A program made the translations under genes and the position numbers. 64,000 nt of DNA from an uncultured Candidatus Hydrogenedens sp. GTDB lineage: Bacteria > Myxococcota > UBA4151. Numbering within the stretch: the stretch's first letter is position 1; every line of letters begins with the position of its first letter. The notes beneath the pieces are model-generated. The model made no database searches and was not told the origin of the DNA. It saw only the letters and a program-made list of their open reading frames with translations. Below, piece after piece: positions 2-62,513 of the stretch. The stretch is taken from the NCBI GenBank assembly GCA_902574205.1, contig CACGMS010000001.1:41819-105818 (forward strand). The letters are read 5' to 3'.

Positions 2-1076
2 TGCGGTGATGGCGTTCAGGACGAAGGAGAGGCTTGCGACGATGGTAATGAGGTTCAAATCGATGCCTGTACGAATTCGTGCGAAGTCGCTCGCTGTGGT
101 GACGGCATTCGACGTGGCGATGTAGAATTTGGGCAGGAGGGATACGAGAGTTGTGATGATGGTAATCAGGCGCAAACCGACAACTGTCTCAACAATTGTG
201 TCGCAGCGCGCTGTGGGGACAGTCACCTTCTAGATGGCGTGGAGGCATGTGATGATGGGAACAATAACGATCGCGATGCGTGCACCAACGCCTGCCAGGA
301 TGCGCGCTGCGGCGACGGCATGACGCGACAAGATATCGCTCGGGGTGACCAAGGATTTGAGGAATGTGATGACGGTAATGAGGTGGATACCGACGCCTGT
401 TTGAGGAGTTGTCAAACGGCACGCTGCGGTGACCAGCAGGTCTGGAATGGTGTTGAAAGCTGCGACGATGGTAACGACGTTCAAAGTGATGCGTGCACGA
501 ATGCATGCGAACAAGCAGCCTGTGGTGATGGCATTTTACGGACCGATATTGCTCAAGGGCAACCCGATTACGAAGCCTGCGATGACGGTGATGAAGACGA
601 TAACGACGCCTGCACGAACAATTGCGTTGTTCGACAGTCACGTTGTGGTGATGGCGTTCGCGATCAGGGCGAAGCTTGTGATGATGGCAATGAGATTCAA
701 ACCGACGCGTGCACGAATTCTTGCGAATTAGCTCGCTGCGGCGACGGTGTTCGTCGCGGTGATGTGCAGGTTGGTCAGCAGGGCTACGAGAGCTGTGACG
801 ATGGCAATCAGGTGCAAACCGACGACTGCCTCAGCAATTGTACTGTGGCGCGTTGCGGGGATAGCCACCTTCGAGACGGCGTGGAAGCATGTGACGACGG
901 CGATAACGATGATCGCGATGCATGCACGAATTCGTGCCAAAACGCCCGTTGCGGTGACGGCATGACGCGCCAAGATATCGCTCGGGGTGAGCAAGGATTC
1001 GAGGAGTGCGATGATGGGAATCAAGTCGATACCGACCCGTGCTTAAATACCTGTCAAACGGCGCGCTGCGGTGATG
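2..1076 (+). repeat. Higher-order duplication inside the CDS: ~430-bp block (4 repeat units) at 2-432 recurs at 644-1076 (offset 642 bp)
   Basis: The protein blocks [23 protein letters not shown]...CQTARCGD and [23 protein letters not shown]...CQTARCGD align collinearly at roughly 80% identity by eye. Confidence 0.8.
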
Positions 1077-2494
1077 GTATCATCTGGGCTGGACAAGAGA
1101 CCTGCGATGATCGCGATCTCGATGATTACGATGAATGTCGAAATCACTGCCAGTTAGCAGTGTGCGGTGATGCCATAGTTCGTCGTGATCTGAACCCCGG
1201 CCAAGACGGTTATGAGTTCTGCGACGATGGTAATCGCGAAGCCGGTGACGACTGCACCAACACCTGCACCACGGCGCGCTGCGGTGATGGTGTTGTGCGC
1301 GTTGGCTCGGAAATTTGTGATGACGGCAACCAAAACAACGGTGATGCCTGCCTCAATAATTGCGTGACTGCACGGTGTGGCGATGGCGCTATTCAAGTGG
1401 GTGTCGAGGCGTGTGACGATGGCAACCGAAATGATTTAGACGGCTGTCGCAATACGTGTGCGGTGGCGATCTGCGGTGATGGGGTTGTGCGAGCAGGCGA
1501 AGAGCAATGCGATGATGGCAACCGTGTGGATACGGACGTTTGTCTCAACAACTGTCAGCAGGCACGTTGTGGCGACGGGGTGGTGCGAGTCGGCGTTGAA
1601 GGATGTGATGATGGCGATAACAATGCGCGCAATGCCTGCACAAATGCCTGTCAAACAGCGCGCTGCGGTGACGGCGTAGTACGCAACGATATTGCTGAAG
1701 GGCAACCCAACTACGAGGAATGTGATGATGGCGACGAAGACAACACCAACGATTGCAGCAACAGCTGTCGTTCCCAGGTGCAGCGCTGCGGTGATGGTGT
1801 TGTTCAAGCAGGTGAAGGATGTGATGACGGAAACCAGGTCCAAACAGATGCCTGCTTGAATAATTGCACGGTGGCGCGCTGTGGTGATGGCGTACTACTA
1901 GAAGGCGCTGAGGAATGCGACGATGGCAACGAGGACAACACCGATGCATGCACCAATAGCTGTGTGGCGGCACGCTGTGGTGACGGCGTTGTTCAAGCAG
2001 GTGAAGGATGTGATGACGGAAACCCCGATCAAAGTGATGCGTGCTTGAATAACTGTACGATGGCTAGTTGCGGTGATGGCGTAGTGCGCCAAGACCTGCA
2101 GGACGGACAGGCTGGGTATGAAGCATGCGATGACGGCAACGGAATTAATACCGACGGTTGTCGCACGAATTGCCAAGCGGCGCGATGCAGTGATGGATTT
2201 GTCCAAGATGGCGCCGAAGAATGTGATGATGGGAACTCCACGCCCACTGACTCGTGCACCAACGACTGTCAGGTTGCTCGTTGCGGTGATGGTATTCGGC
2301 GGTTTGACTTGCCTGATGGGGAGGCGGGATACGAAGCCTGTGATGACGGCAACGAGGTGCAAACCGACGCGTGCCTGAGTGATTGCAGAGCCGCGCGCTG
2401 TGGTGATGGCATTGTCTGGAGCGGTGTCGAAGGCTGCGATGACGGCAACCAAGTCGACGACGATGGCTGTCGAAACAATTGCCAAACCAACTAG
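2..2494 (+). CDS. Cysteine-rich repeat protein (Myxococcus-type CGDG/CDDGN disulfide repeat, DUF4215-like); 5' end lies off the window
   Basis: Frame 2 is open from base 2, so the track ORF 239..2494 is only the part after the first in-frame Met. There are 24 tandem units of 32-37 aa with the pattern RCGDG-x(5-12)-CDDGN-x4-D-x-C-x3-C. The protein ends directly after the last unit (…CRNNCQTN*) with no separate C-terminal domain. The family name is from memory of TIGR02232/DUF4215 and was not searched. Confidence 0.85.
1799..2024 (+). repeat. Exact 37-nt duplicate (gttgttcaagcaggtgaaggatgtgatgacggaaacc) at 1799-1835 and 1988-2024
   Basis: Read directly. The offset is 189 bp, equal to two repeat units. 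Confidence 0.9.
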
Positions 2495-2566
2495 AAACCC
2501 CGTGTTTTCGCTGGGAAACGGCTCTGATTTTAGAACGCCAGCGTTTGTTCACAAGGCCAATGAAGG

Positions 2567-3793: not shown

Positions 3794-6700
3794 ATGCGTT
3801 TATCAAAGTTGTCTGCTGTTTGTTGGGTCATGGTCAGTCTGATGACCATGTCGTGTTCCCAATGGCTCGGTGACGAGCCATCGCCTGCGCAATGCGGTAA
3901 TGGCGTCGTTGAAGGCGCTGAACTCTGTGATGATAAAAATTCGGTCGATACCGATCAATGCACCAATTCTTGTGCCGTGGCTCGCTGCGGTGACGGCATC
4001 GTGCGTTCGGATTTAGCTGAGGGTGACGAGGGCTATGAAGCTTGCGACGATGCAAACGCCATTGATACCGATGGTTGCACGGCGCAGTGCGTCGTTGCTC
4101 GATGCGGTGATGGTCTGTTGCGCACGGACGTCGAGGTCGAGGATGCGGCCTATGAGCATTGCGATGATGGCAACACGATTGAAACGGATGGCTGCACCAA
4201 TGCGTGTCAGATTGCCCGTTGCGGTGATGGCTTTGTGCGGACGGATCAACGCGAGGGAGATCCTGACTACGAGTATTGCGATGACGGTAACGTCGATCCT
4301 ACCGATGCATGTACCGAGAAATGTGTGCCGGCGTTATGCGGCGATGGCCGAACGCATGCCGGGGTTGAGGAATGCGATGACGGCAATTTAGACGACACCG
4401 ATGACTGTCGGCTTAATTGCGAGACGGCGCGCTGCGGCGATGGGATTACGCGCCGAGATCGCGAAGAAGGTGTGGAGGGTTACGAAGCCTGCGACGACGG
4501 CAATGCGATTGATACCGACAGTTGCCGCAACAGTTGTATGGCGGCGCGCTGTGGCGATGGCGTTCTCGGTCCGGGCGAAGGCTGCGATGATGGCAACGAG
4601 GAGCCACTCGATGCCTGCCACGACTGTCGTTTGACCTCTTGCGGTGACGGCATCACGCAAAGCGGAGAAGCCTGTGATGATGGCAACCGAAACGAAACCG
4701 ACAGTTGTTTGTCCACCTGCGCGCTTGCGGCCTGCGGTGACGGCTATACACGGCGCGATGTGAATCCGGGCGAGGCCGATTTTGAAGCCTGTGATGATGG
4801 CAATGGGGTCAATGAGGATGCTTGTACTAATTCGTGCGCATCGGCGCGTTGCGGCGATGGTATCACCGCATTTGGTGAAGCCTGCGATGACGGGAACAGG
4901 GTCAATGAAGACGCCTGCTCGAACCGTTGCGAGCGTGCTCGCTGCGGTGATGGCATTACCCGTTTAGATCTGGCGCAAGAGCATCCGCAACATGAGACCT
5001 GTGATGATGGAAACCGGATCAACGAAGATACCTGCACCAATGGTTGCCGTGAAGCTCGCTGCGGCGATGGCATTGTTCAGATCGGAGTGGAACAATGCGA
5101 TGACGGTAACCTCGACGATACGGACGGTTGCACCACGACCTGCCGAAATGCTCGTTGTGGAGATGGTCAAGTGCAGCCTGGAGAGCGTTGCGATGATGGC
5201 AACGACAACAACAATGATGCTTGCACGAATACGTGTCAGGTGGCGCGCTGTGGCGATGGCTATGCGCAAACCGACGTTGAAGCGTGTGACGACGGCAACC
5301 AGGTCACCGAGGATGCCTGCACCAATAATTGTGCGGTCGCACGCTGCGGCGATGGGATTCGTCGTTTGGATCGTGCTGAAGGTGAATCTGGCTTTGAAGG
5401 CTGCGACGACGGAAACCAAGTTCAAACGGATACCTGCAGCAATAACTGTCAAATAGCTCGTTGCGGGGATGGGCATCAAGGCCCTGGTGAAGGGTGTGAC
5501 GATGGTAACAACGACAATGGTGACGGCTGCAGCGACACCTGTCAGACGGCCCGCTGCGGTGACGGTCACGTGCAAGAGGGTGAAGAAGAATGCGATGACG
5601 GTAATCAAAACACCCAAGATGCGTGCACTAACGCGTGCACCACAGCGCGTTGCGGTGACGGCATTCAGCGTCAGGATATTGAGGCAGGAGCTGTAGGCTT
5701 TGAGGCCTGCGACGACGGCAACGCGGTCCAAACGGACAGCTGCATCAATACCTGCCAAAGTGCTCGCTGCGGCGATGGGCATCAAGGTCCAGGCGAAGGC
5801 TGCGATGACGGCAACGATAGCAATGCGGACCAGTGCACCAACGGCTGTCAACCGGCGCGTTGTGGTGATGGGCACGTCCAACAAGGCGAAGAACAATGCG
5901 ACGACGGTAACCAAAACAGTCAAGACGTCTGCACCAACGTATGCACCACTGCGCGCTGCGGCGATGGGATCGTCCGGTTGGGTTTGGTCGCAGGTCAAGA
6001 AGGCTTTGAGGAATGCGATGACGCAAATGAGGTGAACACGGATGCGTGCCTGAACACCTGTCGCGTTTCACGATGCGGGGATGGTGTGATCTGGGCGCGC
6101 CGAGAAGCCTGTGATGATGGCAACGATATCGCCCACGACGAATGCACCAACTTATGCACACGAGCCCAATGTGGTGATGGGATACGGCGGCAAGATATCC
6201 AAGATGGAGAGGCGGGTTATGAGGCATGCGATGATGGCAACCGTCAGGACAACGATGCGTGTTTGAACACTTGTATCACTGCGCGCTGCGGTGACAGTGT
6301 TCGGCGTCGGGACCTTGTTGATGGACAAGATGGCTATGAATCCTGTGATGATGGTAACCGCCAAAACAACGATGCCTGTCTCAATACCTGCCTAACCGCA
6401 CGATGCGGTGATGGTGTGGTGCGAAATGAGGGCGATGATCCTGAAGCATGTGACGACGGCAATCGCGTGACCACCGATGCGTGCACCAATTTATGCCAGC
6501 CGGCGCAATGTGGCGATGGCATTCGACGGTTAGACATTAACGAGGGTGAGGAAGAGTTCGAAGCTTGCGATGATGGCAACAACATCGAAGACGCGTGTAC
6601 CGAAAACTGCACGCGAGCACGCTGCGGCGATGGCTATCGGCGCACAGATTTGCAGCCAGGAGATGAAGGTTATGAATTCTGTGATGAGGGCGACGTGGCG

Positions 6701-7564
6701 GAGGATGAGGGTGGCTACCGCTGCACAACTGAATGTACAGCAACCCGTTGCGGTGATGGCATACGCAACACCATTCGAGAAAACATTGGCGAACAACAGG
6801 TCGATGGGGGTTCGGGGGATACATCCGATGGTGGTAGCCGCTACCGATGGCGTACCGAAGAATGCGACGACGGCAACGACGACAACGACGACGACTGCAG
6901 CAACACCTGTCGAAGCAACCGCCAAGACGCTGGCCCCAATCGAGACGGTGGACCCAACGACGACAGCGGCAACACCGACAGACAAGACAGCGGCCAAGCG
7001 ATCCCCACCCCCAACAACAACGACGGTGGCGACAACAACGACGACGAATGCAACGACAGCAACGACGGCGGTAACACCGTCGACGGCAGGAGTTGTCCTC
7101 CGGCACGCTGCGACGGCGGGAGCTGCCCTAACGACGCCGGTACTTCAGATACGGGCTCATCCTGCGGTAATGGAGTCGTTGATGAGGGCGAACAATGCGA
7201 TGACGGTAATGAGATTAGCAGCGATGGATGCAGTTCGGGGTGTGAAACTGAGACCCCGCGCTGGGTTGAGATCGAGGGTCGTGACGTACGAGTGATCGTC
7301 GGTAGGTGCAGCGGTCAATCGACCATTGAGGTGACATGTCAAGCCGGTCCGGTGGACGGTAATGGCGCTACGGTGGGAGATGAGTTGGCGGTTGGCTCGG
7401 CTCGAGATGTCGAACTCAAAGGAAGCGACGCCGAGTCTGGTTTTCTTCAAGGATTTTCATCCAGTGTAGTAAGCCCCACAGTCATGGAAATCACTGGAGC
7501 GACAGGCTGTGGTCAAGATCGGCTTGAAGTCCGTGAAGCGACCATTTGGGAGTGTCGGTACTAG
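3794..7564 (+). CDS. Giant cysteine-rich repeat lipoprotein (~29 CGDG/CDDGN units) with a D/N/G-rich spacer and a ~115-aa terminal domain
   Basis: The track ORF is 3734..7564. The ATG at 3794 gives MRLSKLSAVCWVMVSLMTMSC, a signal peptide with a Cys lipobox, so I prefer it as the start. I counted 29 CDDGN-type units. A low-complexity D/N/G stretch covers about 6790-7140. The non-repeat C-terminus is TPRWVEIEGRDVRV...TIWECRY. Confidence 0.88.
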   Translation: MRLSKLSAVCWVMVSLMTMSCSQWLGDEPSPAQCGNGVVEGAELCDDKNSVDTDQCTNSCAVARCGDGIVRSDLAEGDEGYEACDDANAIDTDGCTAQCVVARCGDGLLRTDVEVEDAAYEHCDDGNTIETDGCTNACQIARCGDGFVRTDQREGDPDYEYCDDGNVDPTDACTEKCVPALCGDGRTHAGVEECDDGNLDDTDDCRLNCETARCGDGITRRDREEGVEGYEACDDGNAIDTDSCRNSCMAARCGDGVLGPGEGCDDGNEEPLDACHDCRLTSCGDGITQSGEACDDGNRNETDSCLSTCALAACGDGYTRRDVNPGEADFEACDDGNGVNEDACTNSCASARCGDGITAFGEACDDGNRVNEDACSNRCERARCGDGITRLDLAQEHPQHETCDDGNRINEDTCTNGCREARCGDGIVQIGVEQCDDGNLDDTDGCTTTCRNARCGDGQVQPGERCDDGNDNNNDACTNTCQVARCGDGYAQTDVEACDDGNQVTEDACTNNCAVARCGDGIRRLDRAEGESGFEGCDDGNQVQTDTCSNNCQIARCGDGHQGPGEGCDDGNNDNGDGCSDTCQTARCGDGHVQEGEEECDDGNQNTQDACTNACTTARCGDGIQRQDIEAGAVGFEACDDGNAVQTDSCINTCQSARCGDGHQGPGEGCDDGNDSNADQCTNGCQPARCGDGHVQQGEEQCDDGNQNSQDVCTNVCTTARCGDGIVRLGLVAGQEGFEECDDANEVNTDACLNTCRVSRCGDGVIWARREACDDGNDIAHDECTNLCTRAQCGDGIRRQDIQDGEAGYEACDDGNRQDNDACLNTCITARCGDSVRRRDLVDGQDGYESCDDGNRQNNDACLNTCLTARCGDGVVRNEGDDPEACDDGNRVTTDACTNLCQPAQCGDGIRRLDINEGEEEFEACDDGNNIEDACTENCTRARCGDGYRRTDLQPGDEGYEFCDEGDVAEDEGGYRCTTECTATRCGDGIRNTIRENIGEQQVDGGSGDTSDGGSRYRWRTEECDDGNDDNDDDCSNTCRSNRQDAGPNRDGGPNDDSGNTDRQDSGQAIPTPNNNDGGDNNDDECNDSNDGGNTVDGRSCPPARCDGGSCPNDAGTSDTGSSCGNGVVDEGEQCDDGNEISSDGCSSGCETETPRWVEIEGRDVRVIVGRCSGQSTIEVTCQAGPVDGNGATVGDELAVGSARDVELKGSDAESGFLQGFSSSVVSPTVMEITGATGCGQDRLEVREATIWECRY
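5462..6073 (+). repeat. Three-unit (306-bp) supra-repeat duplicated in tandem: 5462-5767 and 5768-6073
   Basis: [47 protein letters not shown].. is followed by [47 protein letters not shown].. Confidence 0.85.
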
Positions 7565-15590: not shown

Positions 15591-18188
15591 ATGGGTCCTC
15601 GGCTTCTCATTCTCATGGCTTGGATTGCATCATGCAGTCCCAGCTTGCCCACGATACAAGCCGATGAAGCGCGTTGCGGCGATGCCGTGGTGGACACCAA
15701 CGAAGCCTGCGACGACGGCAACGAGGACAATACGGATTCATGTACAGACCGTTGCGAGTTTGCAGCGTGTGGCGATGGTTATGTGCAGAGGGATGAACGC
15801 TGCGATGACGGGAACTTTAACGATCGAGATGGCTGCACTAATGTGTGCGAACCGGCGCGTTGCGGCGACGCGATCTGGCGGCAGGACCTCAACGCTGAGG
15901 CTGAAGGCTTTGAAGCCTGCGATGATGGGAATCTCGAAGAAAGCGACGGCTGCACGACCTTGTGCGCCCCACCACGCTGCGGCGACGGCATCACCCAAAC
16001 CGATGAGGCCTGCGATGATGGCAACACCATCGACAGCGACGCGTGTCGCAACACCTGCGTTGCTGCCACCTGTGGTGATTCCGTCACTCGGGCCGATGTG
16101 GTCGAGGGTGAAGACGGTTACGAGGCTTGCGACGGCGGCGAGAATTGCAGCGAAGATTGTCGTTTGGTGCTTTGCGGAAACGGCATCGCCGAGCCTGGTG
16201 AAGCCTGCGATGACGGCAATACCATCGACACCGACGCCTGCATCGCTTGCGCGTTAGCGCGCTGCGGCGATGGGCACCTTTATGAGGGCGCGGAGGCCTG
16301 TGACGATGGCAACCTAGATCCGGGCGACTCCTGCAGCGTCGATTGCCGAATCGACGACCATGGCAACACGTTCGACACCGCCACCCCGCTTGCCCTGGTC
16401 AATGGCACCAGCCGCGGCGTGTTCACACCCATCGTCAACGCTCAGATTAACCCGAGCGACGACATCGACCTCTTCGTTTTGACTGCGCCCAGCACGGGGG
16501 TCTATCGCTTCACCACGACGCGCCCTGTAGACGATCCCAGAGGCGACCCGGTTTGCCGCGTGTTCGACGCAGCCTTCAATCTTGCAGGGTTCATGGACGA
16601 TCTTTCTCTGGCTCAGACCCCCAATGATCTGCCCAGCAACTTCGATTGTTCTGTGGAATTGCGTCTGCAGGAAGGACAGCGCGGCTTCTTTGAAGTCGGC
16701 TCCTTTGGCTCGCGCAACGTTGCCTACAACGTTGAAGTGCAAACGCCCTGCGGCAATGGCGTGCTCGATCCGGGCGAGGAATGCGATCCTCAATCGCCGC
16801 AATACAATCCTTTTCGCTGCCGCACGGATTGCCGACTTAGACGCTTGATTTCCCTCGCCGGGAGCACGGGTTGTGCGGTGGTTGATGGCGCCGTTAAGTG
16901 TTGGGGCAGTAATTCAAGTTATTTGCTTGGCGAGAACCCTGAGCGTCACATCACGTGCGCCAAAGACGGGCACGACAGGACGGGGCGGCGATTAGGTAGC
17001 TACAATGTCGATGTGGTCCGATTTCCCGTTGAAGTGATTCCTGCGTCCGAGCGGGTCAAGGACCTCACAAGCTCGGGTCTCGAACAGGTCTGTGCGCTTT
17101 CCGGTGTGACCAATCTGCCACTGTGCTGGGGGCGTCTTCTGGTGGAGAATCTCGGCGGTGGTAGTATATCCGAGGAGGGCCTGAGGCAGTGTCAAGATGA
17201 TGAGCCGCCGCGATGGGAGGGCATCATCCGAGGTGCCTGTCACCCGGAGCCTGTCGTTATGGGTGACTTATACCACAACATCGACTGGGAAGAATCAAGC
17301 GTCCTGGATCGACTGATCGGCATCACGGTGGGCACGAACTCTAAGTGCTTAATCAGCCGGGGCGGTCACGTCTATTGTTCGGGCTATATGCGCTTTGGTT
17401 TGCAAGGCGACCAAATAAGCATGGAGCGACAGATCGCCTCCCAATCGGACTACAACCATTGGCCAGCTCCGTCCTTAGCACGTGAAGCGGTCATGCCCGC
17501 GAACGAAATGGCTGAATATGTTGCGCTTGGGGAATGGTCGGCCTGTGCCCTCCTGGGCGCCAGTCAGCGCCTGGCCTGTTGGGGGAAGAATAACTATGGT
17601 CAAACGGGCTCGGGACGCAGCACCACCGTAGAGGGATGCGAGGGTGTCCCTTGCGAGCCCACCCCGGTCTTGGTCGATGGCGATCTCGGTGAAGTGGTGA
17701 GCTTGAGCGTCGGCCAAAGCCATGGTTGCGCCGTCAATGGTGTGGGTCACGCCTTTTGTTGGGGTTTGAATGCCCACGGTCAAACGGGTAGTCCTTCTGA
17801 CGAGTCCGCGTGCGATGACCTCGGTTGTGTGCGTCGTCCGACTCGGGTTGCAGGCCTTGAGGGCGTGATCGATATCGTCGCGGGTACGCGCCATAGTTGC
17901 GCCCTGACGCAGAACGGCGGTGTCTGGTGTTGGGGCGACAACGCGCTCGGTCAGCTGGGCATGGGGGTACTCGGGGGTGAAGGGCGTGGTCAGCCGGATT
18001 TCCGCGTGGAACCGGTCCGGGTTGGACGCTTAGGCCGTATGGTGGGTTTGGCGGCGGGGCCTGAAAGCAACTGTGCTCGTGCCGCTGACGGCAACATCTT
18101 TTGTTGGGGCGCCAACGGCACGGGACAATTGGGCACCGGTGAATGCACCGAAGCGGAACCCTTTCCCCTTGCCGTCGACCTTCGGTAA
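15591..18188 (+). CDS. Cys-rich repeat / PPC-like / RCC1 beta-propeller lipoprotein (tandem paralog A)
   Basis: The lipobox is IASC. About 7 CGDG/CDDGN units are followed by DDHGNTFDTATPLAL...DIDLFVL, which looks like a pre-peptidase C-terminal domain. A degenerate unit [14 protein letters not shown] follows. The C-terminus has ~7 RCC1-type blades (CWGSN, CWGKNNYGQTGSG, CWGLNAHGQTG, CWGDNALGQLG, CWGANGTGQLG). Confidence 0.88.
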   Translation: MGPRLLILMAWIASCSPSLPTIQADEARCGDAVVDTNEACDDGNEDNTDSCTDRCEFAACGDGYVQRDERCDDGNFNDRDGCTNVCEPARCGDAIWRQDLNAEAEGFEACDDGNLEESDGCTTLCAPPRCGDGITQTDEACDDGNTIDSDACRNTCVAATCGDSVTRADVVEGEDGYEACDGGENCSEDCRLVLCGNGIAEPGEACDDGNTIDTDACIACALARCGDGHLYEGAEACDDGNLDPGDSCSVDCRIDDHGNTFDTATPLALVNGTSRGVFTPIVNAQINPSDDIDLFVLTAPSTGVYRFTTTRPVDDPRGDPVCRVFDAAFNLAGFMDDLSLAQTPNDLPSNFDCSVELRLQEGQRGFFEVGSFGSRNVAYNVEVQTPCGNGVLDPGEECDPQSPQYNPFRCRTDCRLRRLISLAGSTGCAVVDGAVKCWGSNSSYLLGENPERHITCAKDGHDRTGRRLGSYNVDVVRFPVEVIPASERVKDLTSSGLEQVCALSGVTNLPLCWGRLLVENLGGGSISEEGLRQCQDDEPPRWEGIIRGACHPEPVVMGDLYHNIDWEESSVLDRLIGITVGTNSKCLISRGGHVYCSGYMRFGLQGDQISMERQIASQSDYNHWPAPSLAREAVMPANEMAEYVALGEWSACALLGASQRLACWGKNNYGQTGSGRSTTVEGCEGVPCEPTPVLVDGDLGEVVSLSVGQSHGCAVNGVGHAFCWGLNAHGQTGSPSDESACDDLGCVRRPTRVAGLEGVIDIVAGTRHSCALTQNGGVWCWGDNALGQLGMGVLGGEGRGQPDFRVEPVRVGRLGRMVGLAAGPESNCARAADGNIFCWGANGTGQLGTGECTEAEPFPLAVDLR

Positions 18189-18191
18189 ACG

Positions 18192-23924: not shown

Positions 23925-24677
23925 TTGGTGCAGATGCGCTTACTGGTTGTTTTGGTTGTTTTGGTTACCGGTCCAGCGTTGGCAAGTGACCAGCCTGGTC
24001 TCGCCGCATTGAACATCAAGGCTGAACGAGGCGTGGATGCGAGTTTGGCGACACTCATCAGTGAAGCGATTCTGAGTGAACTCAAGGCGAGCGGTCGCTT
24101 TGCTTCGGTTATCGGCAGTTCCGATATGCAAACGATGATCGATATGGAGCAGCAAAAGCAGGCTTTGGGCTGCGACGAGAACACCTGTTTGGCTCAACTC
24201 GGTGGTGCGCTTGGAGTCCCTTATTTACTCAGTGGAAGTTTGGGATCGGTGGGTGGGCAATTTATGCTCAATCTGAAGATCATTCAGGTCGAAGAATCTC
24301 GCGTCGCAGAGCGAAAAACGCATATTTTTGATTCGGAAAAAGCGCTCGTCCGAGGGCTGGAATCGGTTTTGACGGGTTTAGTTTCAGGAGCTTTGAATTC
24401 GGCTGACGGCCAAGCCGAGTCGGTAAAGCAGGTCAGGGTGATGTCGCAGAGTAAAAGACTCGGTCCCTGGGTTGGCGGTGGATTGGCGACGATCGGCACA
24501 GGGTTGGCACTCGGCGGGTATCTCTCTGCACAAGCAGCACAGTCTGATTATGATGCATCGCCAACGGTGGCTCGTAGCCGAGACCTTCAAAGTGCAGTCT
24601 CTTCGGGAAATACGATGATCAGTATTGGCCTTGGATCCGTGGGTGCAGGTATCGCTGCTTTGGTGTGGTTACGATGA
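23925..24677 (+). CDS. Membrane-anchored protein carrying the GC-x4-C / ALGVPYLL module (uncharacterised, CsgG/LpoB/TolB-N-like by pattern only)
   Basis: The signal peptide is MRLLVVLVVLVTGPALA. The module is LISEAILSELKASGRFASVIGSSDMQTMIDMEQQKQALGCDENTCLAQLGGALGVPYLLSGSLGSVGGQFMLNLKIIQVEESRV. The C-terminus has two hydrophobic segments flanking AQSDYD. The start is uncertain among TTG 23925, GTG 23928 and ATG 23934. Confidence 0.8.
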   Translation: MVQMRLLVVLVVLVTGPALASDQPGLAALNIKAERGVDASLATLISEAILSELKASGRFASVIGSSDMQTMIDMEQQKQALGCDENTCLAQLGGALGVPYLLSGSLGSVGGQFMLNLKIIQVEESRVAERKTHIFDSEKALVRGLESVLTGLVSGALNSADGQAESVKQVRVMSQSKRLGPWVGGGLATIGTGLALGGYLSAQAAQSDYDASPTVARSRDLQSAVSSGNTMISIGLGSVGAGIAALVWLR

Positions 24678-45365: not shown

Positions 45366-46568
45366 CTAATCGTTTATTGCGTCGTGAAAAAAGTCCACGA
45401 CAGCAGCGCGCTCTGAGGTGTCTGTAATGGTTGGGTTTCCAAGTTGTCCATGCGAGTTGTCTCCCCAACAGTAGGTATAGCCTCCTACGCTTACTGAGAT
45501 GCGCGCACAGCTAAAGGTCTTTCCGCCTGTGAACTGAACCCATTGCAGGTTGGGTAAGATTTCAACTTTTGCAATCCCGCTTTCATTCGGTTCACCGCCC
45601 AATTGACCGTACGAGTTATCGCCCCAGCAGACCGGGTGTCGGCCATCCGAATCGATCGCACACGTGTGGTTATCAGCGCAAAACACTTTGTCAGGAACCA
45701 TGGCAAGATTGATAACCTTTGGCGAGAGGTTACCGCCTGGATTGTTAGGCTGAATTTGCCCAAAGCTGTTATCGCCCCAGCACTGAACTTGTGGTCGGTC
45801 GTTCTCTCCTGTTTTGAGGATAACGCACGCGTGTTGGCGACCTACACAGAGTGAGTCGGGGTTAAGCTGACCGTCATTAGGTATGTCGAGAATCACCCTT
45901 GGTTCAGTGGGAAACGGATCCGCCTGCGTCGTTTGGCGTCCCCAGCAAATGACTTTGGATGGATTGAGCGTGACGGCACAGATATGGTCGTCGCCGACAT
46001 CAAAGGATTGGACGCTAATTGGTTGATCGTTCAGCTCCAACTGGAGCTCAAAAGGCGTGCGGTCGTTGGCGTCATTTTGACCAGGAAAAACCTGATACGA
46101 AGTGTCGCCCCAACAGGTGAGCGTGCCAAAGCCCGTATCATCTCGCTGCTGTGCGCAGGTTTTGGTTGAGCTTGATTTGATGGTCCGAAATTCACCGCTC
46201 ACGAGGAGCGTCGCCGCTTCTTGCGTGTCGTTGTGGCCAAAGACACCGTTGGGTGACTGCCCTGCACAGAGCACCTGACCGTCGACGCGTAAGCCGCAGA
46301 TCGTTGTACCGGTGACAGCGATCTGTTCAATGCCTTCTGATTGATTGATGGAAAACGGTAGCTCATAGGTTCGCCAGGGTGCACCTAAACTACCCCAGCA
46401 ACGAGTTTTTTCTGCGCCCGCTGCGGCGCAGACGAGGTCATCGACAGCGTCAATATGCTGCGGATCGTATTGATTGTAGTTGTATCCATCGAGCGGGTGA
46501 TTTCGCTCGGAGCTAATCGGGAGGCAGCTAAGACTTGATATCAGCGCCACAATGAGTAACGGCTTCAT
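45366..46568 (-). CDS. RCC1-repeat beta-propeller lipoprotein
   Basis: The ATG at 46568-46566 overlaps the upstream TGA (46567-46565) as ATGA. The lipobox is MKPLLIVALISSLSC. The blades include RCWGS, TCWGDTSYQ, ICWGRQ, QCWGDNSFGQ, VCWGDNSYGQLG and YCWGDNSHGQLG. Confidence 0.85.
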   Translation of the reverse strand: MKPLLIVALISSLSCLPISSERNHPLDGYNYNQYDPQHIDAVDDLVCAAAGAEKTRCWGSLGAPWRTYELPFSINQSEGIEQIAVTGTTICGLRVDGQVLCAGQSPNGVFGHNDTQEAATLLVSGEFRTIKSSSTKTCAQQRDDTGFGTLTCWGDTSYQVFPGQNDANDRTPFELQLELNDQPISVQSFDVGDDHICAVTLNPSKVICWGRQTTQADPFPTEPRVILDIPNDGQLNPDSLCVGRQHACVILKTGENDRPQVQCWGDNSFGQIQPNNPGGNLSPKVINLAMVPDKVFCADNHTCAIDSDGRHPVCWGDNSYGQLGGEPNESGIAKVEILPNLQWVQFTGGKTFSCARISVSVGGYTYCWGDNSHGQLGNPTITDTSERAAVVDFFHDAIND

Positions 46569-47350
46569 CGAGAGCTCCAAAATGACCAAAGATTCAAGCT
46601 TACGCCGAGCGCTCCAATGGCCACTGCCGTCATGCGCGCTGCGCCGAACTGATCGATCTGCTGCGTGAGATGGTTGTCCGCCGCATAGAGTGCATCCTCA
46701 TCTAAGGCGTGGTCGTAGTCTTGGCGCGCCTGGATCAAATCATCGGTTGAAGGCGCCATTACAGCGAAGACCCCCACGCTCGACCCGAGTAATGCCAAGC
46801 CCAACCATGAAAATCGGCGCGGTTGAAGCTGTTTGGTCGTCTGGGCGGGGTTGTTTTGAACGGGTTTTTGGCTTGCGCCCTCTGATGTTTTTGATGGCTT
46901 GCCAAATGCCTGAACAAGCATTTTATGGACATCGTTGGTGAGTCCATCAACGAGTTGGTCTTCATTGTCATAAATCGTAGACGAGCGAGTTACGACACGT
47001 GCTTCCTCAACGGCGAGCAGTTTGATGTTGAGCATGAGTCGGCTGCCTACTTGACCGACGGAACTCGTCAGTAAGTAAGGCACGCCAAGCGCCCCACCGA
47101 GCTCCGCAAGGCAGTTGCTGTCACCGCAGCCGAGCGCTGTCTTTTGTTGCTCGAGATCGAGCATTTCACGCATGTCGCTCGCACCGAGTATTTGACCAAA
47201 GACCGGGCTCCTTTGAAACTCGGTGATTAGCCGCTCGTTTAGTAAAGAGCCGACGCCCTGAGATAAGCCGGCTTCGACTTTCATATCCATCACCGCTAGA
47301 CCGGGTTTGGGGCTTGACAGCGTCGCCATCAAAACAAGTGCCACAGGCAT
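46565..47350 (-). CDS. Membrane-anchored protein carrying the GC-x4-C / ALGVPYLL module
   Basis: The module is ...LLNERLITEFQRSPVFGQILGASDMREMLDLEQQKTALGCGDSNCLAELGGALGVPYLLTSSVGQVGSRLMLNIKLLAVEEARV. The C-terminal hydrophobic hairpin flanks ARQDYD. Confidence 0.82.
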   Translation of the reverse strand: MPVALVLMATLSSPKPGLAVMDMKVEAGLSQGVGSLLNERLITEFQRSPVFGQILGASDMREMLDLEQQKTALGCGDSNCLAELGGALGVPYLLTSSVGQVGSRLMLNIKLLAVEEARVVTRSSTIYDNEDQLVDGLTNDVHKMLVQAFGKPSKTSEGASQKPVQNNPAQTTKQLQPRRFSWLGLALLGSSVGVFAVMAPSTDDLIQARQDYDHALDEDALYAADNHLTQQIDQFGAARMTAVAIGALGVSLNLWSFWSSR

Positions 47351-52540: not shown

Positions 52541-52549
52541 TCGGTGCGC

Positions 52550-53899: not shown

Positions 53900-53903
53900 G
53901 CGC

Positions 53904-59418: not shown

Positions 59419-60018
59419 CTATTGAGCCTCAAAGGCGCCGAGGCGTTTACGCGCCTCGGCGAAGGTCTCTTTGACGTCCTGTGCGAGCTTGGGGTCGAGT
59501 TTTTCGAGTCCGCCATAAAGACCGCTCGCTTCTTCAAAGCCTTTGTCCATGGCTTGGCGCATCAACTCGGCAAACTCGGAGCGCTCGGACTGAGACCCCT
59601 TGACTTCGCTGGGTTGCTTTTGCGCTTTAAGAAATGAATCAAACATAGCGATGGCGACTCCGGCTAAGCGCTTGCCACGCGCCTGCGGTGAGTCGTCGTT
59701 TACCTTGGGTGGGTTGGTGGCATCGTAGCGATTAACCAGGGTATTTTTGAGCTCTTCGACCTGTTTGTTCAGGCGCGCCTTGGTGCGCTCCATCAACGAG
59801 GGGATCTCGTGCCGTTTGAGGTGCTCACTAAGCGCTGACTTCATCTGGCTCTGGGCGCTGCGTTCAAATTGGTTGCGTTGCGCACGCTCACGCAGCGCCG
59901 AGAGTTTGATGGACGACTCTAAGTCGACGTACTCGATGGAGATCGCCGGAGGACGCGCAAAAGACGGCGGCTTGGTTGCGATGTTGTGGGCACCAAAGGC
60001 GCCGATTTTGTGAACCAC
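59419..60018 (-). CDS. Hypothetical protein (DUF5610-like, tentative)
   Basis: It is helical and charged, with no signal peptide. FAELMRQAMDKGFEEASGLYGGLEKLDPKLAQDVKETFAEARKRL resembles DUF5610 as I remember it. Confidence 0.6.
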   Translation of the reverse strand: MVHKIGAFGAHNIATKPPSFARPPAISIEYVDLESSIKLSALRERAQRNQFERSAQSQMKSALSEHLKRHEIPSLMERTKARLNKQVEELKNTLVNRYDATNPPKVNDDSPQARGKRLAGVAIAMFDSFLKAQKQPSEVKGSQSERSEFAELMRQAMDKGFEEASGLYGGLEKLDPKLAQDVKETFAEARKRLGAFEAQ

Positions 60019-60088
60019 AGCCGCTCCCTCCTTGGTGCTTGCCGCTAGTCAGTTTAGCAGTTTGCTCGTGTCGATTCTAGTCCGATAG

Positions 60089-61669
60089 CTAATAGCGTAT
60101 ACCGCAGCACATCATAGATTTTTCAGCGGTGGTATGATTATTACCGTTTACACAAGCCCTTTGGCTTCCTGCTGTCTGCGGACCTTCCGCATTAAAGCCA
60201 TAAAAGTTACTTCGACATTGGACGGTCGATGTCACCTCACGACCCCAAGCATTGTAGCGGCAAGCGTGCCGCTGGTATGCGAACCTACAACTGCCACCAC
60301 CATGGCTGTTTCCTGCTGTCGTCGTTGATATTTCTCCATCTGACTCGCAGCGGTGTGTCACAGTTTGACAGCTAAAAACCGGCCGGTCGCCTGTATAGCG
60401 TCCAGTCTCACCGTTGACTTGGAAGACCACATTACCGGCACGATTACGCATAACCAAGCCTTGATTGTTATCAGAATTAAGTTCGACAGCTGCATTACCT
60501 GCCTGATTACGCATCACCAATTTACTACCCATTAGAGTTTCGATGCCTGAGCGCGTGCGCAACCAGCCATCGGCCTCTAAATCGTTGCCGGCATAGATGG
60601 TGCCGTCTTCGAAGGTTTCGTCAAAGTGCAACGACCAGCTGTGCAGCGTGCCCTCGGCGCCGGCGTCGGCGTCGATCACCACCAAGCGCCAGACCCCGGA
60701 GGCGTCCTCGCCGACCATGCGCTCAAGACTGCTGCTCGCCGGCAGCGTCTCTCGCCCGTAGCGGGTGTTGATGTTCTGTCCGGCGCCGGCCTGGTGCAGC
60801 ACCACCTCGGTGCCTGCGGGCGAGGTTAAGGTGACCGACAGCTGGCTGGTGTCTGGATGATCAATGCGCAGCTGGACCGTGAGGCGCTCGATGCCCTCTT
60901 GCAGCTGGATGTTGCTGTTGATCAGCCCGGTAATACCAACCAAGTTGGCGTCGGGGATGGCGATCGGATTTTGCACCGAGGCGACCGATTGTCCGGCGAC
61001 GACGTTGCCTAAGTTCACGTCACCTTGTCCTTGAAACCCTTGCGCAAAACCGCCGGCGGGTCCGGCTGGACCTTGATCGCCTTGAGGACCCGCAGGACCT
61101 TGAATACCTTGATCACCTTGCGCGCCTTGTGGACCGGCTGGACCCTGGACGCCTTGGTCGCCTTGGTCGCCTTGCGGTCCGCGCTCACCAGCTGGGCCTT
61201 GCTCGCCGCGCCCAGGAATGTCCGGACCTACCCAATTGCCCGTTTCATCGATGACCATCTGCTCGCCGATGGTGACCGTGCGTGGGTGGATGTTGCGCCC
61301 AGCCACGTCGCCTGCTTGTTGGGCAAAGGGCACCGCGCCCAAGCGTTGGCGCGGCGTGAGCTCATCGCCGTCATCGATGGTTAGGCCTAAATGCAAATCG
61401 GCGCGGTTAAAGAGCCCGGCAGGAAAGGGGGTCTCTCGCCCCAGACTCACGCTAAAGGCGCCTTGGCGCACCACCACGTCGGCGACGCGCTCGGTCCAGA
61501 CCGCCTCGCCGCCTTGTCCTTGCTCATACAGAGCAAAGCGCAGCGCCACGACCGCCTCTAAGGGCTGGTCGTTTAGGTCGGTTAGAAAGCCGTCGTAGAT
61601 CATCGGGCGCGCCTGAGCCGGCAGCGCTGCGAGGACGGTAGCGAGAAGAACAATGAACTTAAGGCGCAC
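60089..61669 (-). CDS. Collagen-like triple-helix repeat protein with a tail-fibre-like N-domain and a proprotein-convertase P-domain
   Basis: The GTG at 61669 gives [20 protein letters not shown], a signal peptide; the track ORF starts at 61717 and would overlap the upstream gene by 59 nt. There are 17 G-X-Y triplets. The P-domain pattern is [29 protein letters not shown]...[30 protein letters not shown]. The C-terminus is Cys-rich. Confidence 0.82.
61055..61207 (-). repeat. Collagen-like G-X-Y x17 coding repeat
   Basis: The translation is [52 protein letters not shown], residues 171-221 of the track ORF. Confidence 0.9.
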
Positions 61670-62513
61670 GAAAGCCCCCTTTGAGTTTGTAGCGGTCGTT
61701 GGTAGGCCCTTTGGCATCGAGGGCTCTTAGGCGACCGCGCACACGGTATCCCGTGCCTTGCATGGCGCCGCCTTGAGGCGGTCGACGCTGCAGACCGGGT
61801 GCTCGGTAATCAGGGCGAGCCGGGTTGGGGTCGCAATCGTCCCCTGCGCCGTCGCCGTCGGTATCGGTTTGGTTGGCGTTGGAAAAACCAGGGCAGTTGT
61901 CGCGCGCATCGGCGATCCCGTCGCCATCACTATCAAGCGGAATGCATAGACCTTCTCTGCAGCTAAAGCCCTCTTCACAGTCGCTATCTTGCCCACACTG
62001 CGGTGCGTCGGGTGGGTCTTCGTTGCAGCGCTCGTTGCGGCACCACAGCGAGGGCGGACAGTCACGATCGACCGCACAAGGGGGGCGCAAGCAGGCCGCC
62101 GTGCACAGGTCGGTGTCGTCGTCGTTGGCGTCATCGCAGGCCTCAAAGCCGGGCTGCCCCTCCGAGCGGTCCATACGCACGATCCCGTCGCCGCATACCG
62201 CCCCTTGGCAGGTGCTCACGCAGGCGTCTTGGTCGACGTTGTTGCCGTCATCACAGGCTTCATAACCTTCATCGAGCGGAGTCAGGTCTTGCCGGGTGAT
62301 GCCATCGCCGCAGCGCGCCACTTGACAGTTGGCGGCGCAGGCGTCGGTGACGTCGGTGTTGCCGTCGTCGCAGGCCTCGCCCTCATCGACCACGCCGTTG
62401 CCGCAGGTTGCTGCGGCACCACCCGCACCAGCACCGCCGGTGCCATCCGAGCCGGAGCAGGCGGCGAAGAGGGTGAGGATACACAGAAGTAAAGACCGTC
62501 TCATCATGGACAC
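61659..62513 (-). CDS. Lipoprotein: 3 Cys-rich CGDG/CDDGN units + Cys-knot-like segment + thrombospondin type-3 (calcium-binding) repeat
   Basis: The lipobox is LTLFAAC. There are 3 CDDGN units. The TSP3 repeat is [35 protein letters not shown]. Confidence 0.85.

What the first reader, a model, noticed from the sequence alone, without database searches (positions are those of the whole stretch)
2..62513. Repertoire of stalk-plus-head surface lipoproteins built on ~110 cysteine-rich repeat units in 8 genes
Seen in sequence:
- Eight CDSs carry the CGDG/CDDGN repeat: 2..2494, 3794..7564, 15591..18188, 18192..20840, 21090..23822, 27391..29880, 33000..35240(-) and 61659..62513(-). My counts per gene are 24, 29, 7, 7, 19, 17, 5 and 3 units.
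- All seven genes whose N-terminus lies in the window have a signal peptide ending in a Cys lipobox.
- The repeat tract is always N-terminal. The C-terminus differs between genes: none, a small orphan domain, PPC plus RCC1 (two genes), a fibrinogen-like domain (two genes), a 530-aa orphan domain, or a TSP3 repeat.
Established knowledge: the repeat itself is a known family (Myxococcus cysteine-rich repeat), but its function is uncharacterised.
Inference: the tracts are rigid disulfide-bonded stalks of variable length that present interchangeable binding heads at the cell surface. That would fit a modular adhesin or prey/substrate-recognition repertoire.
Basis: partly seen in the sequence, partly recalled or inferred. 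Interest (0 to 1): 0.7.

Follow-up and report, generated by a model that had tools for sequence, protein, structure and literature searches.

The report
Cysteine-repeat stalk lipoproteins with varied heads
Eight genes in this window encode membrane-anchored proteins in which a long chain of small, acidic, cysteine-rich (probably calcium-binding) modules carries different binding domains; the repeat family is already catalogued but uncharacterised, so this is a clear but fairly ordinary example.

Summary
Eight CDSs carry 24, 29, 7, 7, 19, 17, 5 and 3 CGDG…CDDGN units (111 in frame, 2 chance matches elsewhere). All eight pass the DUF4215 (PF13948) and TIGR02232 cut-offs.

Seven have a signal peptide ending in a lipobox Cys: five fit the strict pattern and two are near-canonical. 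The heads are partly confirmed:
- RCC1 is confirmed.
- The fibrinogen-like match covers only the N-terminal subdomain.
- TSP3 scores just below its cut-off.
- PPC is not confirmed.
- The g7 head is a mutarotase-like sandwich plus a CBM-like domain.

The stalk-plus-head reading is partly supported:
- In over 40 head-only homologues of the g7 head, a disordered linker replaces the tract.
- In beta-helix relatives the tract lies next to a MYXO-CTERM anchor.
- Two adjacent paralogues on a related contig have 85% identical heads on 29 and 21 units.
- Stalk-less lipoproteins with the same head families lie in this window.

Each unit matches PAPP-A domain M3, where Ca2+ was reported, and the ADAM disintegrin Ca2+ site II motif. 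Three ligand positions are invariant in 111/111 units.

Rod shape and surface exposure remain unproven: no model coordinates were available and stalk pTM was 0.41. g1 ends without a head. The same stalk idea is already published for TraA, so this is a new member of a known kind.

The parts
2..2494 (+). g1: 5'-truncated CDS with 24 DUF4215 units (aa 1-827 of 830). No C-terminal head; the gene continues upstream of the window.
3794..7564 (+). g2. Lipoprotein signal peptide (nt 3794-3856, …SLMTMSC). 28 units (nt 3893-6910). Acidic/Asn/Gly low-complexity linker (nt 6911-7162). Unit 29 (nt 7163-7243). 106-aa orphan C-terminal domain (nt 7244-7561).
15591..18188 (+). g3. Lipobox (…WIASC, nt 15591-15635). 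7 units (nt 15675-16346). One degenerate unit, [14 protein letters not shown]… (nt 16749-16832). RCC1 propeller (nt 16833-18185).
18192..20840 (+). g4: tandem paralogue of g3, 53% identical and collinear. Near-canonical lipobox (…LGFSAC). 7 units (nt 18297-18947). Same middle domain plus degenerate unit plus RCC1 head (nt 18948-20837).
21090..23822 (+). g5. Near-canonical lipobox (…LNMSC). 19 units (nt 21180-23117). 234-aa head whose first ~50 aa are fibrinogen/COLFI-like, with a YCDxxxxGGW motif (nt 23118-23819).
27391..29880 (+). g6. Lipobox (…GSMAC). 17 units (nt 27490-29211; stalk 60% identical to g5). 222-aa head with a fibrinogen/intelectin-like N-terminal subdomain (nt 29212-29877).
33000..35240 (-). 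g7. GTG start at 35240. Lipobox (…MISAC, nt 35166-35240). 5 units (nt 34602-35129). 533-aa head (nt 33003-34601), modelled as a galactose-mutarotase-like beta-supersandwich plus a C-terminal CBM-like jelly roll.
61659..62513 (-). g8. Lipobox (…LFAAC). 3 units (nt 62091-62405). DUF7107 Cys-knot plus a thrombospondin-type-3-like Ca2+ repeat and a basic tail (nt 61662-62090).
24665..25555 (+). Context: stalk-less lipoprotein with the same fibrinogen-like subdomain as the g5/g6 heads (49% identity over 43 aa to g6).
45366..46589 (-). Context: stalk-less lipoprotein made of an RCC1 propeller (28% identical to the g3 head).
39282..41072 (-). Context: RCC1 propeller protein with PEGA/CarboxypepD_reg and LpoB-like N-terminal parts, and no Cys-repeat tract.

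Best explanation
**Proposed architecture.** These are envelope lipoproteins of a Myxococcota/Bradymonadia-like bacterium. They are built as lipid anchor, short tether, tandem array of DUF4215 mini-domains, then a C-terminal functional head.

**The unit (inferred mechanism).** Each 27-35-aa unit is a turn-rich module with almost no secondary structure. It is held together by two disulfides and, by inference, one buried structural Ca2+. The ligands would be the invariant D/N at C1+2, E at C2-2 and D at C2+1, as in site II of ADAM disintegrin domains and in PAPP-A domain M3.

**The array (inferred).** Units joined by constant 4-residue linkers would form an elongated, highly acidic spacer. That spacer holds the head at a gene-specific distance from the membrane, set by 3 to 29 or more units.

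**The heads.** They are mostly folds typical of glycan or ligand recognition:
- an RCC1 propeller;
- a fibrinogen/intelectin-like domain;
- a mutarotase-like sandwich plus a CBM-like domain;
- a TSP3-like repeat.

The set therefore looks like a repertoire of tethered binding or processing modules.

**Shown here:** the architecture, family membership, unit-level homology to PAPP-A M3, modular exchange of heads, and change of stalk length with the head kept constant.

**Inferred only:** Ca2+ binding, rigidity, outward (cell-surface) orientation, and what the heads bind.
For: **Family and unit counts:**

**Anchor:** lipoboxes in 7/7 complete genes. Residue +2 is S, S, L, G, G, S, S, so no Lys or Asp retention residue is present (read).

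**Tract is positionally equivalent to a tether**
- Five orthologues of g7 keep 5 units.
- More than 40 head-only homologues lack the tract. The five read in full have a lipobox followed by a 60-250-aa low-complexity linker.
- Beta-helix relatives have head, then tract, then MYXO-CTERM.

**Head exchange:** more than 25 partner Pfam families. Stalk-less copies of the same head families lie in the window.

**Length change with a constant head:** L008 paralogues have 29 and 21 units on heads 85% identical. In the window, g5 has 19 units and g6 has 17.

**Unit structure**
- AF2 gives pLDDT 85-95 (g7 stalk) and 81 (10-unit g5 stalk).
- There is one local beta-bridge per unit and no long-range strands.
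- A profile of 98 window units hits PAPP-A at E=6e-7 and PAPP-A2 at 5e-5.
- Foldseek superposes one unit on PAPP-A at 1.5 A over 40 columns with 45-48% identity, and on ADAM22 disintegrin at about 2.8-3 A.

**Calcium**
- PAPP-A M3 (S944-G995) is described as 'coils and strands' with two Ca2+ (PMC9579167).
- The ADAM Ds consensus XCGN(X)3EXGEXCD forms buried Ca2+ site II in an 'elongated', 'rigid' arm (PMC4885070).
- Three of its ligand positions are invariant in 111/111 units.

**Composition:** stalks are 23-26% D+E and only 12-15% large hydrophobics, against 26-31% in six of the seven heads (g8 tail 14%). This argues against a collapsed globule.
Against: - No coordinates or PAE could be read. 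Extension was therefore not measured.
- pTM of the 10-unit stalk is only 0.41, which is compatible with flexible joints.
- All Foldseek matches of the stalk have E>=2. Unit homology rests mainly on the sequence profile.
- g1 has no head. g2 has only a 106-aa orphan domain behind 29 units. For these two, presenting a head cannot be the whole function.
- Lipoprotein status and orientation (periplasmic or surface) are predictions only.
- The five g7 orthologues all have exactly 5 units. Stalk length is therefore not freely variable.
- DNA repeats are only 60-80% identical, so there is no sign of rapid length switching.
- Head functions are inferred from weak fold or family similarity. For the g7 head, TM is about 0.5 at about 10% identity.
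Confidence: 0.6

Rival explanations
1. The repeat tract is itself the functional part. It would be an acidic, Ca2+-binding, disulfide-cross-linked adhesive or matrix polymer on or around the cell, serving biofilm, gliding-trail or prey adhesion. The C-terminal domains would be accessories rather than presented heads.
For: - g1 is head-less and g2 is nearly so.
- Tracts carry a net charge of -0.16 to -0.21 per residue.
- A protein with twelve DUF4215 repeats was identified in the adhesive trail material of the diatom Craspedostauros australis (bioRxiv 10.1101/2023.03.06.531300).
- Cys-rich extracellular proteins of Peribacteria were proposed to serve rigidity or attachment (PMC4736985).
Against: - In most family members the tract lies between an anchor and a large folded domain.
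- In head-only homologues it is replaced by a featureless linker with the head kept.
- No experiment ties the repeat itself to adhesion. The diatom paper says its function is unknown.
Confidence: 0.2
2. They are periplasm-facing lipoproteins. The tract would be a periplasm-spanning spacer, like the linkers of LpoA/LpoB or Lpp, that lets the head reach peptidoglycan or the opposite membrane. Nothing would be displayed on the surface.
For: - The lipobox predicts only lipidation, not orientation.
- Disulfides form in the periplasm.
- Head-only homologues have LpoB-like disordered linkers.
- A neighbouring RCC1 protein has a weak LpoB-like N-terminus.
Against: - Arrays of 17-29 units would very probably exceed the width of a periplasm. 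This rests on an assumed length of a few nm per unit, which was not measured.
- Relatives carry the same tract on MYXO-CTERM proteins. That tag is proposed to sort proteins to the cell surface (PMC3325183).
- The head families (fibrinogen/intelectin-like, CBM-like, lectin C, cadherin-like) are typical of extracellular recognition.
Confidence: 0.15
3. The cluster is a contingency or antigenic-variation repertoire. Recombination or slippage among repeats would rapidly change stalk length or swap heads.
For: - Many paralogous repeat genes lie close together.
- Unit number differs between paralogues: 19 against 17 in the window, and 29 against 21 on L008.
Against: - Repeat copies are only 60-70% identical at the DNA level, and the best pairs reach 74-80%. 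There are no near-identical tracts to drive slippage.
- Unit order is conserved between g5, g6, P0057 and P0061.
- g7 orthologues at 74-82% identity all keep 5 units.
Confidence: 0.03

Closest known systems
DUF4215 (PF13948) / TIGR02232 'Myxococcus cysteine-rich (acidic) repeat' proteins; annotated 'DUF4215 domain-containing protein' by NCBI and 'cysteine-rich repeat protein' by JGI
   Same: - All eight genes score far above both curated cut-offs.
- They share the same 4-Cys CGDG…CDDGN unit in tandem arrays.
- Relatives come from the same taxa: Polyangiaceae, Kofleriaceae, Nannocystis, Chondromyces, Sandaracinus, and Bradymonadia/Myxococcota MAGs.
- They show the same mix of partner domains.
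   Different: Nothing essential. Here the tract is always directly behind a lipobox. Eight members, including head-less and stalk-less counterparts, lie within 62 kb. No close orthologues of g5, or of the g3/g4 head, are present in the protein collection.
Myxococcus xanthus TraA outer-membrane-exchange receptor (PA14-like variable domain + Cys-rich repeats TIGR04201 + MYXO-CTERM)
   Same: It follows the same design logic: a recognition head held on a long tandem Cys-rich region attached to a lipid anchor. [quoted passage not shown] AlphaFold models them as an extended shaft (PMC12045341).
   Different: - The repeat family is different: TIGR04201 was not detected here.
- The topology is opposite: TraA has an N-terminal head and a C-terminal MYXO-CTERM, whereas these proteins have an N-terminal lipobox and a C-terminal head.
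- There is no PA14 domain.
- No TraB-like partner was identified among the window genes scanned.
PAPP-A / PAPP-A2 central domain M3 (solved by cryo-EM: 8a7d, 7y5n, 7ufg, 8d8o, 8hgg, 8sl1)
   Same: - A profile of the window's units matches CGDGIIQKDQGEQCDDMNKINGDGCSLFC at E=6e-7.
- An AF2 unit superposes at 1.5 A over 40 columns with 45-48% identity.
- M3 is a small domain of coils and strands with intradomain disulfides and two Ca2+ assigned (PMC9579167).
   Different: PAPP-A has a single copy packed inside a large multidomain protease scaffold. It is not a tandem array and not a stalk. It is eukaryotic and secreted.
Disintegrin-like 'shoulder' (Ds) segment of ADAMs and P-III snake-venom metalloproteinases
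   Same: - The consensus XCGN(X)3EXGEXCD forms buried Ca2+ site II.
- The segment is 'largely a series of turns', part of an elongated arm made rigid by disulfides and Ca2+ (PMC4885070).
- The window units keep N/D, E and D at the matching positions in 111/111 cases, and 3 units fit the consensus exactly.
- There are weak structural matches to ADAM22, ADAM17 and bothropasin, and a weak sequence match to ADAM17.
   Different: - ADAMs have one Ds per protein, followed by Da and Cw segments with different Cys patterns.
- Similarity here is at motif level only: Foldseek E>=2 and HMM E=0.53.
- Common ancestry is not established.

Membership tests
DUF4215 / TIGR02232 cysteine-rich acidic repeat | HMM score above the curated whole-protein cut-off | tested here: met
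   PF13948 scores 39.7-325 bits against a cut-off of 27. TIGR02232 scores 40.3-409 bits against 20.8. This holds for all 8 proteins.
DUF4215 / TIGR02232 cysteine-rich acidic repeat | Four invariant Cys per unit with an acidic CDDGN core, in tandem copies | tested here: met
   There are 111 units. C1, C2, C3, C4, E at C2-2 and the DD after C2 are invariant in the 98-unit alignment.
Bacterial lipoprotein (Lgt/LspA substrate) | N-terminal signal peptide ending in a lipobox with invariant Cys | tested here: met
   A PS51257-type pattern is met by g2, g3, g6, g7 and g8. g4 and g5 miss it by one residue each. Orthologues of g7 have classical lipoboxes.
Bacterial lipoprotein (Lgt/LspA substrate) | Actual acylation and outer-membrane or surface localisation | not testable with these tools
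   This needs palmitate or globomycin labelling, fractionation and protease shaving.
TraA-type receptor | TIGR04201 Cys-rich repeats | tested here: not met
   The NCBIfam scan at E<=0.01 returned only TIGR02232 for the repeat regions.
TraA-type receptor | PA14-like variable head and MYXO-CTERM tag | tested here: not met
   No PA14 hit was found. The C-termini are heads, not Gly-Cys…Arg-rich tags. MYXO-CTERM occurs only in distant relatives.
Disintegrin Ds / PAPP-A M3 type Ca2+-binding mini-domain | Site II ligand pattern XCGN(X)3EXGEXCD | tested here: met
   D/N at C1+2, E at C2-2 and D at C2+1 are present in 111/111 units. The fourth ligand (E/D at position 7) is present in 18/35 short units. 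Three units match the consensus exactly (consensus from PMC4885070).
Disintegrin Ds / PAPP-A M3 type Ca2+-binding mini-domain | Significant sequence or structure similarity to a solved member | tested here: met
   For PAPP-A it is met: profile E=6e-7, and rmsd 1.5 A over 40 columns. For ADAMs it is only suggestive: E=0.53 and Foldseek E>=3.
Disintegrin Ds / PAPP-A M3 type Ca2+-binding mini-domain | Bound structural Ca2+ | not testable with these tools
   AF2 output has no ions and no coordinates were accessible.
RCC1 beta-propeller (g3, g4 heads) | RCC1 repeat HMMs above cut-off | tested here: met
   PF13540 scores 94.8 and 101.8 bits against 22. PF00415 scores 82 and 74.5 bits against 21.7.
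PPC (bacterial pre-peptidase C-terminal) domain (g3, g4 middle domain) | PF04151 match | tested here: not met
   No Pfam family was found at E<=5 for aa 253-400 of g3 or g4. No PDB sequence relative was found either. Only a DDHG…DxDxF motif resemblance is visible by eye.
Fibrinogen-related domain (g5, g6 heads) | Match to fibrinogen-like models over the whole ~220-aa domain | tested here: inconclusive
   - NF040941 (a 46-aa YCDxxxxGGGW model) scores 45.6 and 60.5 bits against 30, so it is met.
- Fibrinogen_C scores 21.1 bits against 22 and covers only positions 16-45 of 221.
- COLFI covers positions 22-71 of 233.
- PDB hits (XEEL, intelectin-1, fibrinogen beta) align only over about 35-50 aa.
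Thrombospondin type 3 repeat (g8) | PF02412 above the gathering score | tested here: inconclusive
   It scores 22-23.3 bits against a cut-off of 25, with a partial match to NF047638. The DxDxDGxxDxxDxC pattern is visible in the sequence.

The most novel reading that the evidence does not exclude
DUF4215 arrays are Ca2+-locked, disulfide-stapled rods that act as molecular rulers. By encoding the same or different lectin-like heads on stalks of 3 to 29 or more units, alongside stalk-less copies, a predatory Bradymonadia-like bacterium would place recognition or processing domains at graded distances from its outer membrane, to engage prey or substrate surfaces. On this reading the bacterial unit is also the evolutionary source of, or a sister to, the Ca2+ site II module of animal disintegrin domains and PAPP-A M3.
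Probability: 0.2. Interest if true: 0.6.

Novelty: new member of a known kind. Interest (0 to 1): 0.35.

Why it matters
DUF4215/TIGR02232 is a very large family. In one search, 6,745 clusters scored E<=1e-10 among the 8,000 candidates that were scored. No function has been assigned to it experimentally.

This window is a compact natural experiment. It holds the same repeat on eight anchors with different heads, one head-less member, and stalk-less copies of two head types.

The link to a solved Ca2+-binding domain (PAPP-A M3) and to the disintegrin site II motif gives a concrete, testable mechanism for the repeat: a structural Ca2+ plus two disulfides per unit. It also supplies a sequence relative for a PAPP-A domain for which the structure paper's authors said no sequence similarity had been reported.

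If surface display were confirmed, the family would be a general stalk solution in Myxococcota, parallel to TraA's unrelated Cys repeats. That would matter for understanding predation and cell-surface recognition.

As it stands, this is a well-documented instance of a catalogued family, not a new kind of system.

Tried and rejected
**Searches that led nowhere**
1. Orthologous loci in GTDB genomes. A scan with the neighbouring glycosyltransferase (25935..27074) returned only unrelated Firmicutes, Flavobacteriales and Acidobacteria loci.
2. Source contig. Exact-product look-ups for the GT4, P0001 and g3 found nothing on record. Only the cluster table showed that g3, g4 and g7 share one 112,483-bp NCBI contig. 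The organism is therefore inferred only from the nearest homologues (Bradymonadia and Myxococcota MAGs) and from GC of 53-60%.
3. Close orthologues of g5 and of the g3 head, to score unit-number variation. None exist in the collection. The best g5 hits are 49-53% identical over the stalk only. The g3 head has only g4 and P0216 (39%) as relatives.

**Tests that could not be completed**
4. Rod or globule from the models. Coordinates and PAE are not exposed.

**Assignments and ideas rejected**
5. PPC for the g3/g4 middle domain: no HMM or PDB support.
6. Contingency-locus or slippage idea: DNA repeats are too diverged.
7. TraA membership: wrong repeat family, no PA14 and no MYXO-CTERM.
8. Single functional operon: the flanking genes are unrelated housekeeping or miscellaneous envelope genes. 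They include a deacetylase, amidohydrolase, S9 peptidase, GST, photolyase, amino-acid permease and cupredoxin.
9. Synteny: the g7 orthologue loci L005-L008 are not syntenic with the window, apart from again lying next to other DUF4215 genes.

Full report
**1. Observation**

The window is 53-60% GC. Translating the eight stated CDSs gives proteins with 3.6-11.6% Cys.

A six-frame scan for the core C[DE][DEGP][GARSKQ][NDE] found 24, 29, 7, 7, 19, 17, 5 and 3 in-frame hits in g1-g8. That is 111 units, and only two hits lay anywhere else in the window.

All eight proteins exceed the curated cut-offs of Pfam DUF4215 and NCBIfam TIGR02232.

The unit is C-G-[DN]-G-x(n)-C-D-D-G-N-x5-D-x-C-x3-C. Units fall into length classes of 26-28 and 35 aa and are joined by 4-residue linkers. 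In a 98-unit alignment the four Cys, the Glu two residues before C2 and the Asp-Asp after it are invariant.

**2. Anchors**

The seven genes with an N-terminus in the window begin with a short basic n-region, a hydrophobic stretch and a Cys.
- Five fit a PS51257-type lipobox pattern.
- g4 and g5 miss it by one residue each.
- No gene has Lys or Asp at +2.

For g7, the NCBI-derived product (P0001, 726 aa) starts at an internal Met and lacks the signal peptide. A JGI product of 746 aa and four orthologues with classical lipoboxes support the GTG start at 35240.

Many unrelated neighbours are also predicted lipoproteins. The lipobox is therefore typical of this genome rather than special to the family.

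**3. Heads**

- *g1* stops three residues after unit 24.
- *g2* has 28 units, a low-complexity acidic/Asn/Gly linker, one more unit and a 106-aa domain with no family match.
- *g3 and g4* are collinear tandem paralogues, 53% identical. Their RCC1 propellers are confirmed. An eighth, degenerate unit follows it.
- *g5 and g6* have stalks 60% identical. They carry NF040941, the 'fibrinogen-like YCDxxxxGGGW' model. Only about 50 N-terminal head residues resemble fibrinogen beta, intelectin/XEEL or collagen C-propeptides.
- *g7* has a 533-aa head that was modelled with AF2 in the full-length protein (pLDDT 90.4, pTM 0.74). Foldseek places it nearest to galactose-mutarotase-like beta-supersandwiches (1yga, 3dcd, 4bze; target TM about 0.5) and to CBM22-type jelly rolls. 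This is a weak hint of carbohydrate binding.
- *g8* has DUF7107 and a TSP3-like repeat just under the Pfam cut-off.

**4. Is the tract a spacer between anchor and head?**

Several independent observations say yes.

(a) A search with g7 found five proteins at 74-100% identity, all with five units. It also found more than 40 head-only homologues that lack the tract; named ones are a Bradymonadia MAG and a Myxococcota MAG. The five that were read in full have a lipobox followed by a 60-250-aa acidic or Pro/Gly-rich low-complexity segment.

(b) In relatives with an N-terminal beta-helix domain, the tract is C-terminal, immediately before a Gly-rich segment and a MYXO-CTERM tag (P0086, P0094, P0095, P0101, P0108). 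The tract adjoins the anchor whichever end the anchor is on.

(c) The tract is combined with many partner families. They include RCC1, cadherin-like/Big_9, Laminin_G, fibrinogen_C, FGE-sulfatase, beta-helix/NosD, C-type lectin, TIG, Kelch, FG-GAP, LTD, PPC, metallophosphatase, P-domain and choice-of-anchor A.

(d) On the related metagenomic contig L008, two adjacent lipoprotein genes next to a g7 orthologue have 198-aa heads that are 85% identical. They sit on 29 and 21 units.

(e) Within the window, stalk-less lipoproteins carry the same head families:
- 24665..25555 is fibrinogen-like, 49% identical over 43 aa to g6;
- 45366..46589 is RCC1, 28% identical to g3;
- 39282..41072 is also RCC1.

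Some qualifications apply. Among 155 fetched family members the tract is N-terminal in 86, internal in 38 and C-terminal in 31. The five g7 orthologues do not vary in unit number. g1 is head-less.

**5. What a unit is**

A profile of 98 window units hits one segment of human pappalysin-1, CGDGIIQKDQGEQCDDMNKINGDGCSLFC, at E=6e-7. It hits pappalysin-2 at E=5e-5.

That segment lies in domain M3 (S944-G995), described as a small domain 'of coils and strands'. The authors assign two Ca2+ to M3. They also state that no sequence similarity had been reported for M1-M6 (PMC9579167).

An AF2 model of ten g5 units has pLDDT 80.8 and pTM 0.41, with one local beta-bridge per unit and no helices or long strands. 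Foldseek gave only 19 weak PDB matches for it. They comprise [10 protein letters not shown]2 (40 columns, rmsd 1.5-1.8 A, 35-48% identity) and ADAM/SVMP chains, namely ADAM22, ADAM17 and bothropasin (40 columns, about 2.8-3 A for ADAM22).

The ADAM/SVMP 'shoulder' segment has the consensus XCGN(X)3EXGEXCD. Its N, E, E and D side chains bind a buried Ca2+ (site II). [quoted passage not shown]

In the window, D/N at C1+2, E at C2-2 and D at C2+1 occur in 111/111 units. The fourth ligand position is acidic in 18 of 35 short units, and three units match the consensus exactly.

I therefore infer one structural Ca2+ per unit. This was not tested.

**6. Rod or globule?**

The indirect evidence favours an extended array:
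- Stalks contain 23-26% Asp+Glu, net charge -0.16 to -0.21 per residue, and only 12-15% large hydrophobic residues. Six of the seven heads have 26-31%; the g8 tail has 14%.
- DSSP shows only i to i+6 bridges within units.
- No multi-unit globular analogue exists in the PDB.
- The linker length is constant, and pLDDT does not drop at linkers.
- A pTM of 0.41 for 350 residues seems to me more than independent 35-residue beads would give, but this was not calibrated and is far from proof of rigidity.

I rate 'elongated' as likely and 'rigid' as open.

**7. Dynamics**

At the DNA level the units are 60-70% identical. The most recent internal duplications reach 74-80%:
- g1, nt 1-300 against 643-942;
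- g2, nt 5339-5638 against 5645-5944;
- g5, nt 22632-22844 against 22845-23057.

Unit order is conserved among g5, g6, P0057 and P0061. Stalk length therefore changes by occasional block duplication or loss. It does not change by rapid slippage, so this is not a contingency locus.

**8. Context**

The eight genes are interspersed with unrelated genes and do not form one operon.

Related contigs again show a g7 orthologue next to other DUF4215 lipoproteins: three on L008, and one with 7 units and a fibrinogen-like head on L005. Clustering of paralogues recurs, although the wider gene order is not conserved.

**9. Comparison with what is known**

The family is catalogued (DUF4215, TIGR02232, IPR011936) and annotated as such in public records. 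Its function is unknown.

The few papers that mention it do so in passing:
- a diatom adhesive-trail protein;
- Peribacteria Cys-rich proteins;
- the COLQ C-terminus.

The stalk-plus-head concept is already published for M. xanthus TraA. TraA uses a different Cys-rich repeat (TIGR04201), has its head at the N-terminus and carries a MYXO-CTERM anchor.

The window proteins therefore work like TraA in design but are not members of that family. They are plain members of DUF4215.

**10. Verdict**

- modularity and the spacer role are supported;
- rigidity and surface exposure are unproven;
- one head label is wrong and two are only partly right.

One is the evidence for a Ca2+-binding, disintegrin/PAPP-A-M3-type unit. 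The other is the positional equivalence of the tract to disordered lipoprotein tethers. Novelty is that of a new member of a known kind, and interest is moderate to low.

Noticed in passing
all 111 units, e.g. window 35019-35129 (-) (g7 unit 1 plus linker): [quoted passage not shown] The unit also carries the ADAM disintegrin Ca2+ site II motif XCGN(X)3EXGEXCD, with three ligand positions invariant in 111/111 units.
   Followed up: yes
window 27451-27489 (+) (g6), 35130-35168 (-) (g7), 21141-21179 (+) (g5, variant); also P0002-P0005, P0057 and the L008 neighbours: A conserved segment lies directly after the lipobox Cys: C-[GS]-E-Q-V-[VI]-V-R-[ED]-x-E-A. It is modelled as disordered (pLDDT <50). 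It may be a lipoprotein sorting or tether signal.
   Followed up: partly
window 35181-35240 (-): The public NCBI-derived product of g7 (P0001, 726 aa) starts at Met21 and so lacks the signal peptide and most of the lipobox context. A JGI call (746 aa) and four orthologues support the upstream GTG start. The public annotation probably has a mis-called start.
   Followed up: yes
window 16749-16832 (+) and the equivalent region of g4: g3 and g4 have an eighth, degenerate unit ([28 protein letters not shown]) after the unassigned middle domain. That domain is therefore inserted within the repeat array rather than following it.
   Followed up: partly
window 60089-61717 (-): The gene immediately downstream of g8 overlaps it by 59 nt as called. 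It encodes a signal peptide, a collagen triple-helix repeat and a proprotein-convertase P-domain. This is a different kind of extended spacer with a head in the same neighbourhood.
   Followed up: no
L008 2953-6633 (-) and 6848-9685 (-); L008 10005-11231 (-); L005 3-1421 (-): In related metagenome contigs the g7 orthologue again lies beside other DUF4215 lipoproteins. Two tandem paralogues have 85% identical heads on 29 and 21 units. The heads (~198 aa, Trp/Tyr-rich) were not scanned here; the precomputed Pfam record lists no hit for either protein.
   Followed up: partly
window 12439-13248 (+), 2567-3598 (+), 52550-53935 (-): Further Cys-containing predicted lipoproteins without the DUF4215 unit lie in the window. 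One has EGF-like/teneurin-EGF matches. One has 5% Cys and DAGTS repeats. One is a BD-FAE esterase with a Cys-rich N-terminus. The region is generally rich in secreted and lipidated proteins.
   Followed up: no
window 59419-60018 (-) and L005 8226-8819 (+): A DUF5610 protein occurs both in the window and near the g7 orthologue on L005. It is the only other shared neighbour noticed, and its significance is unknown.
   Followed up: no
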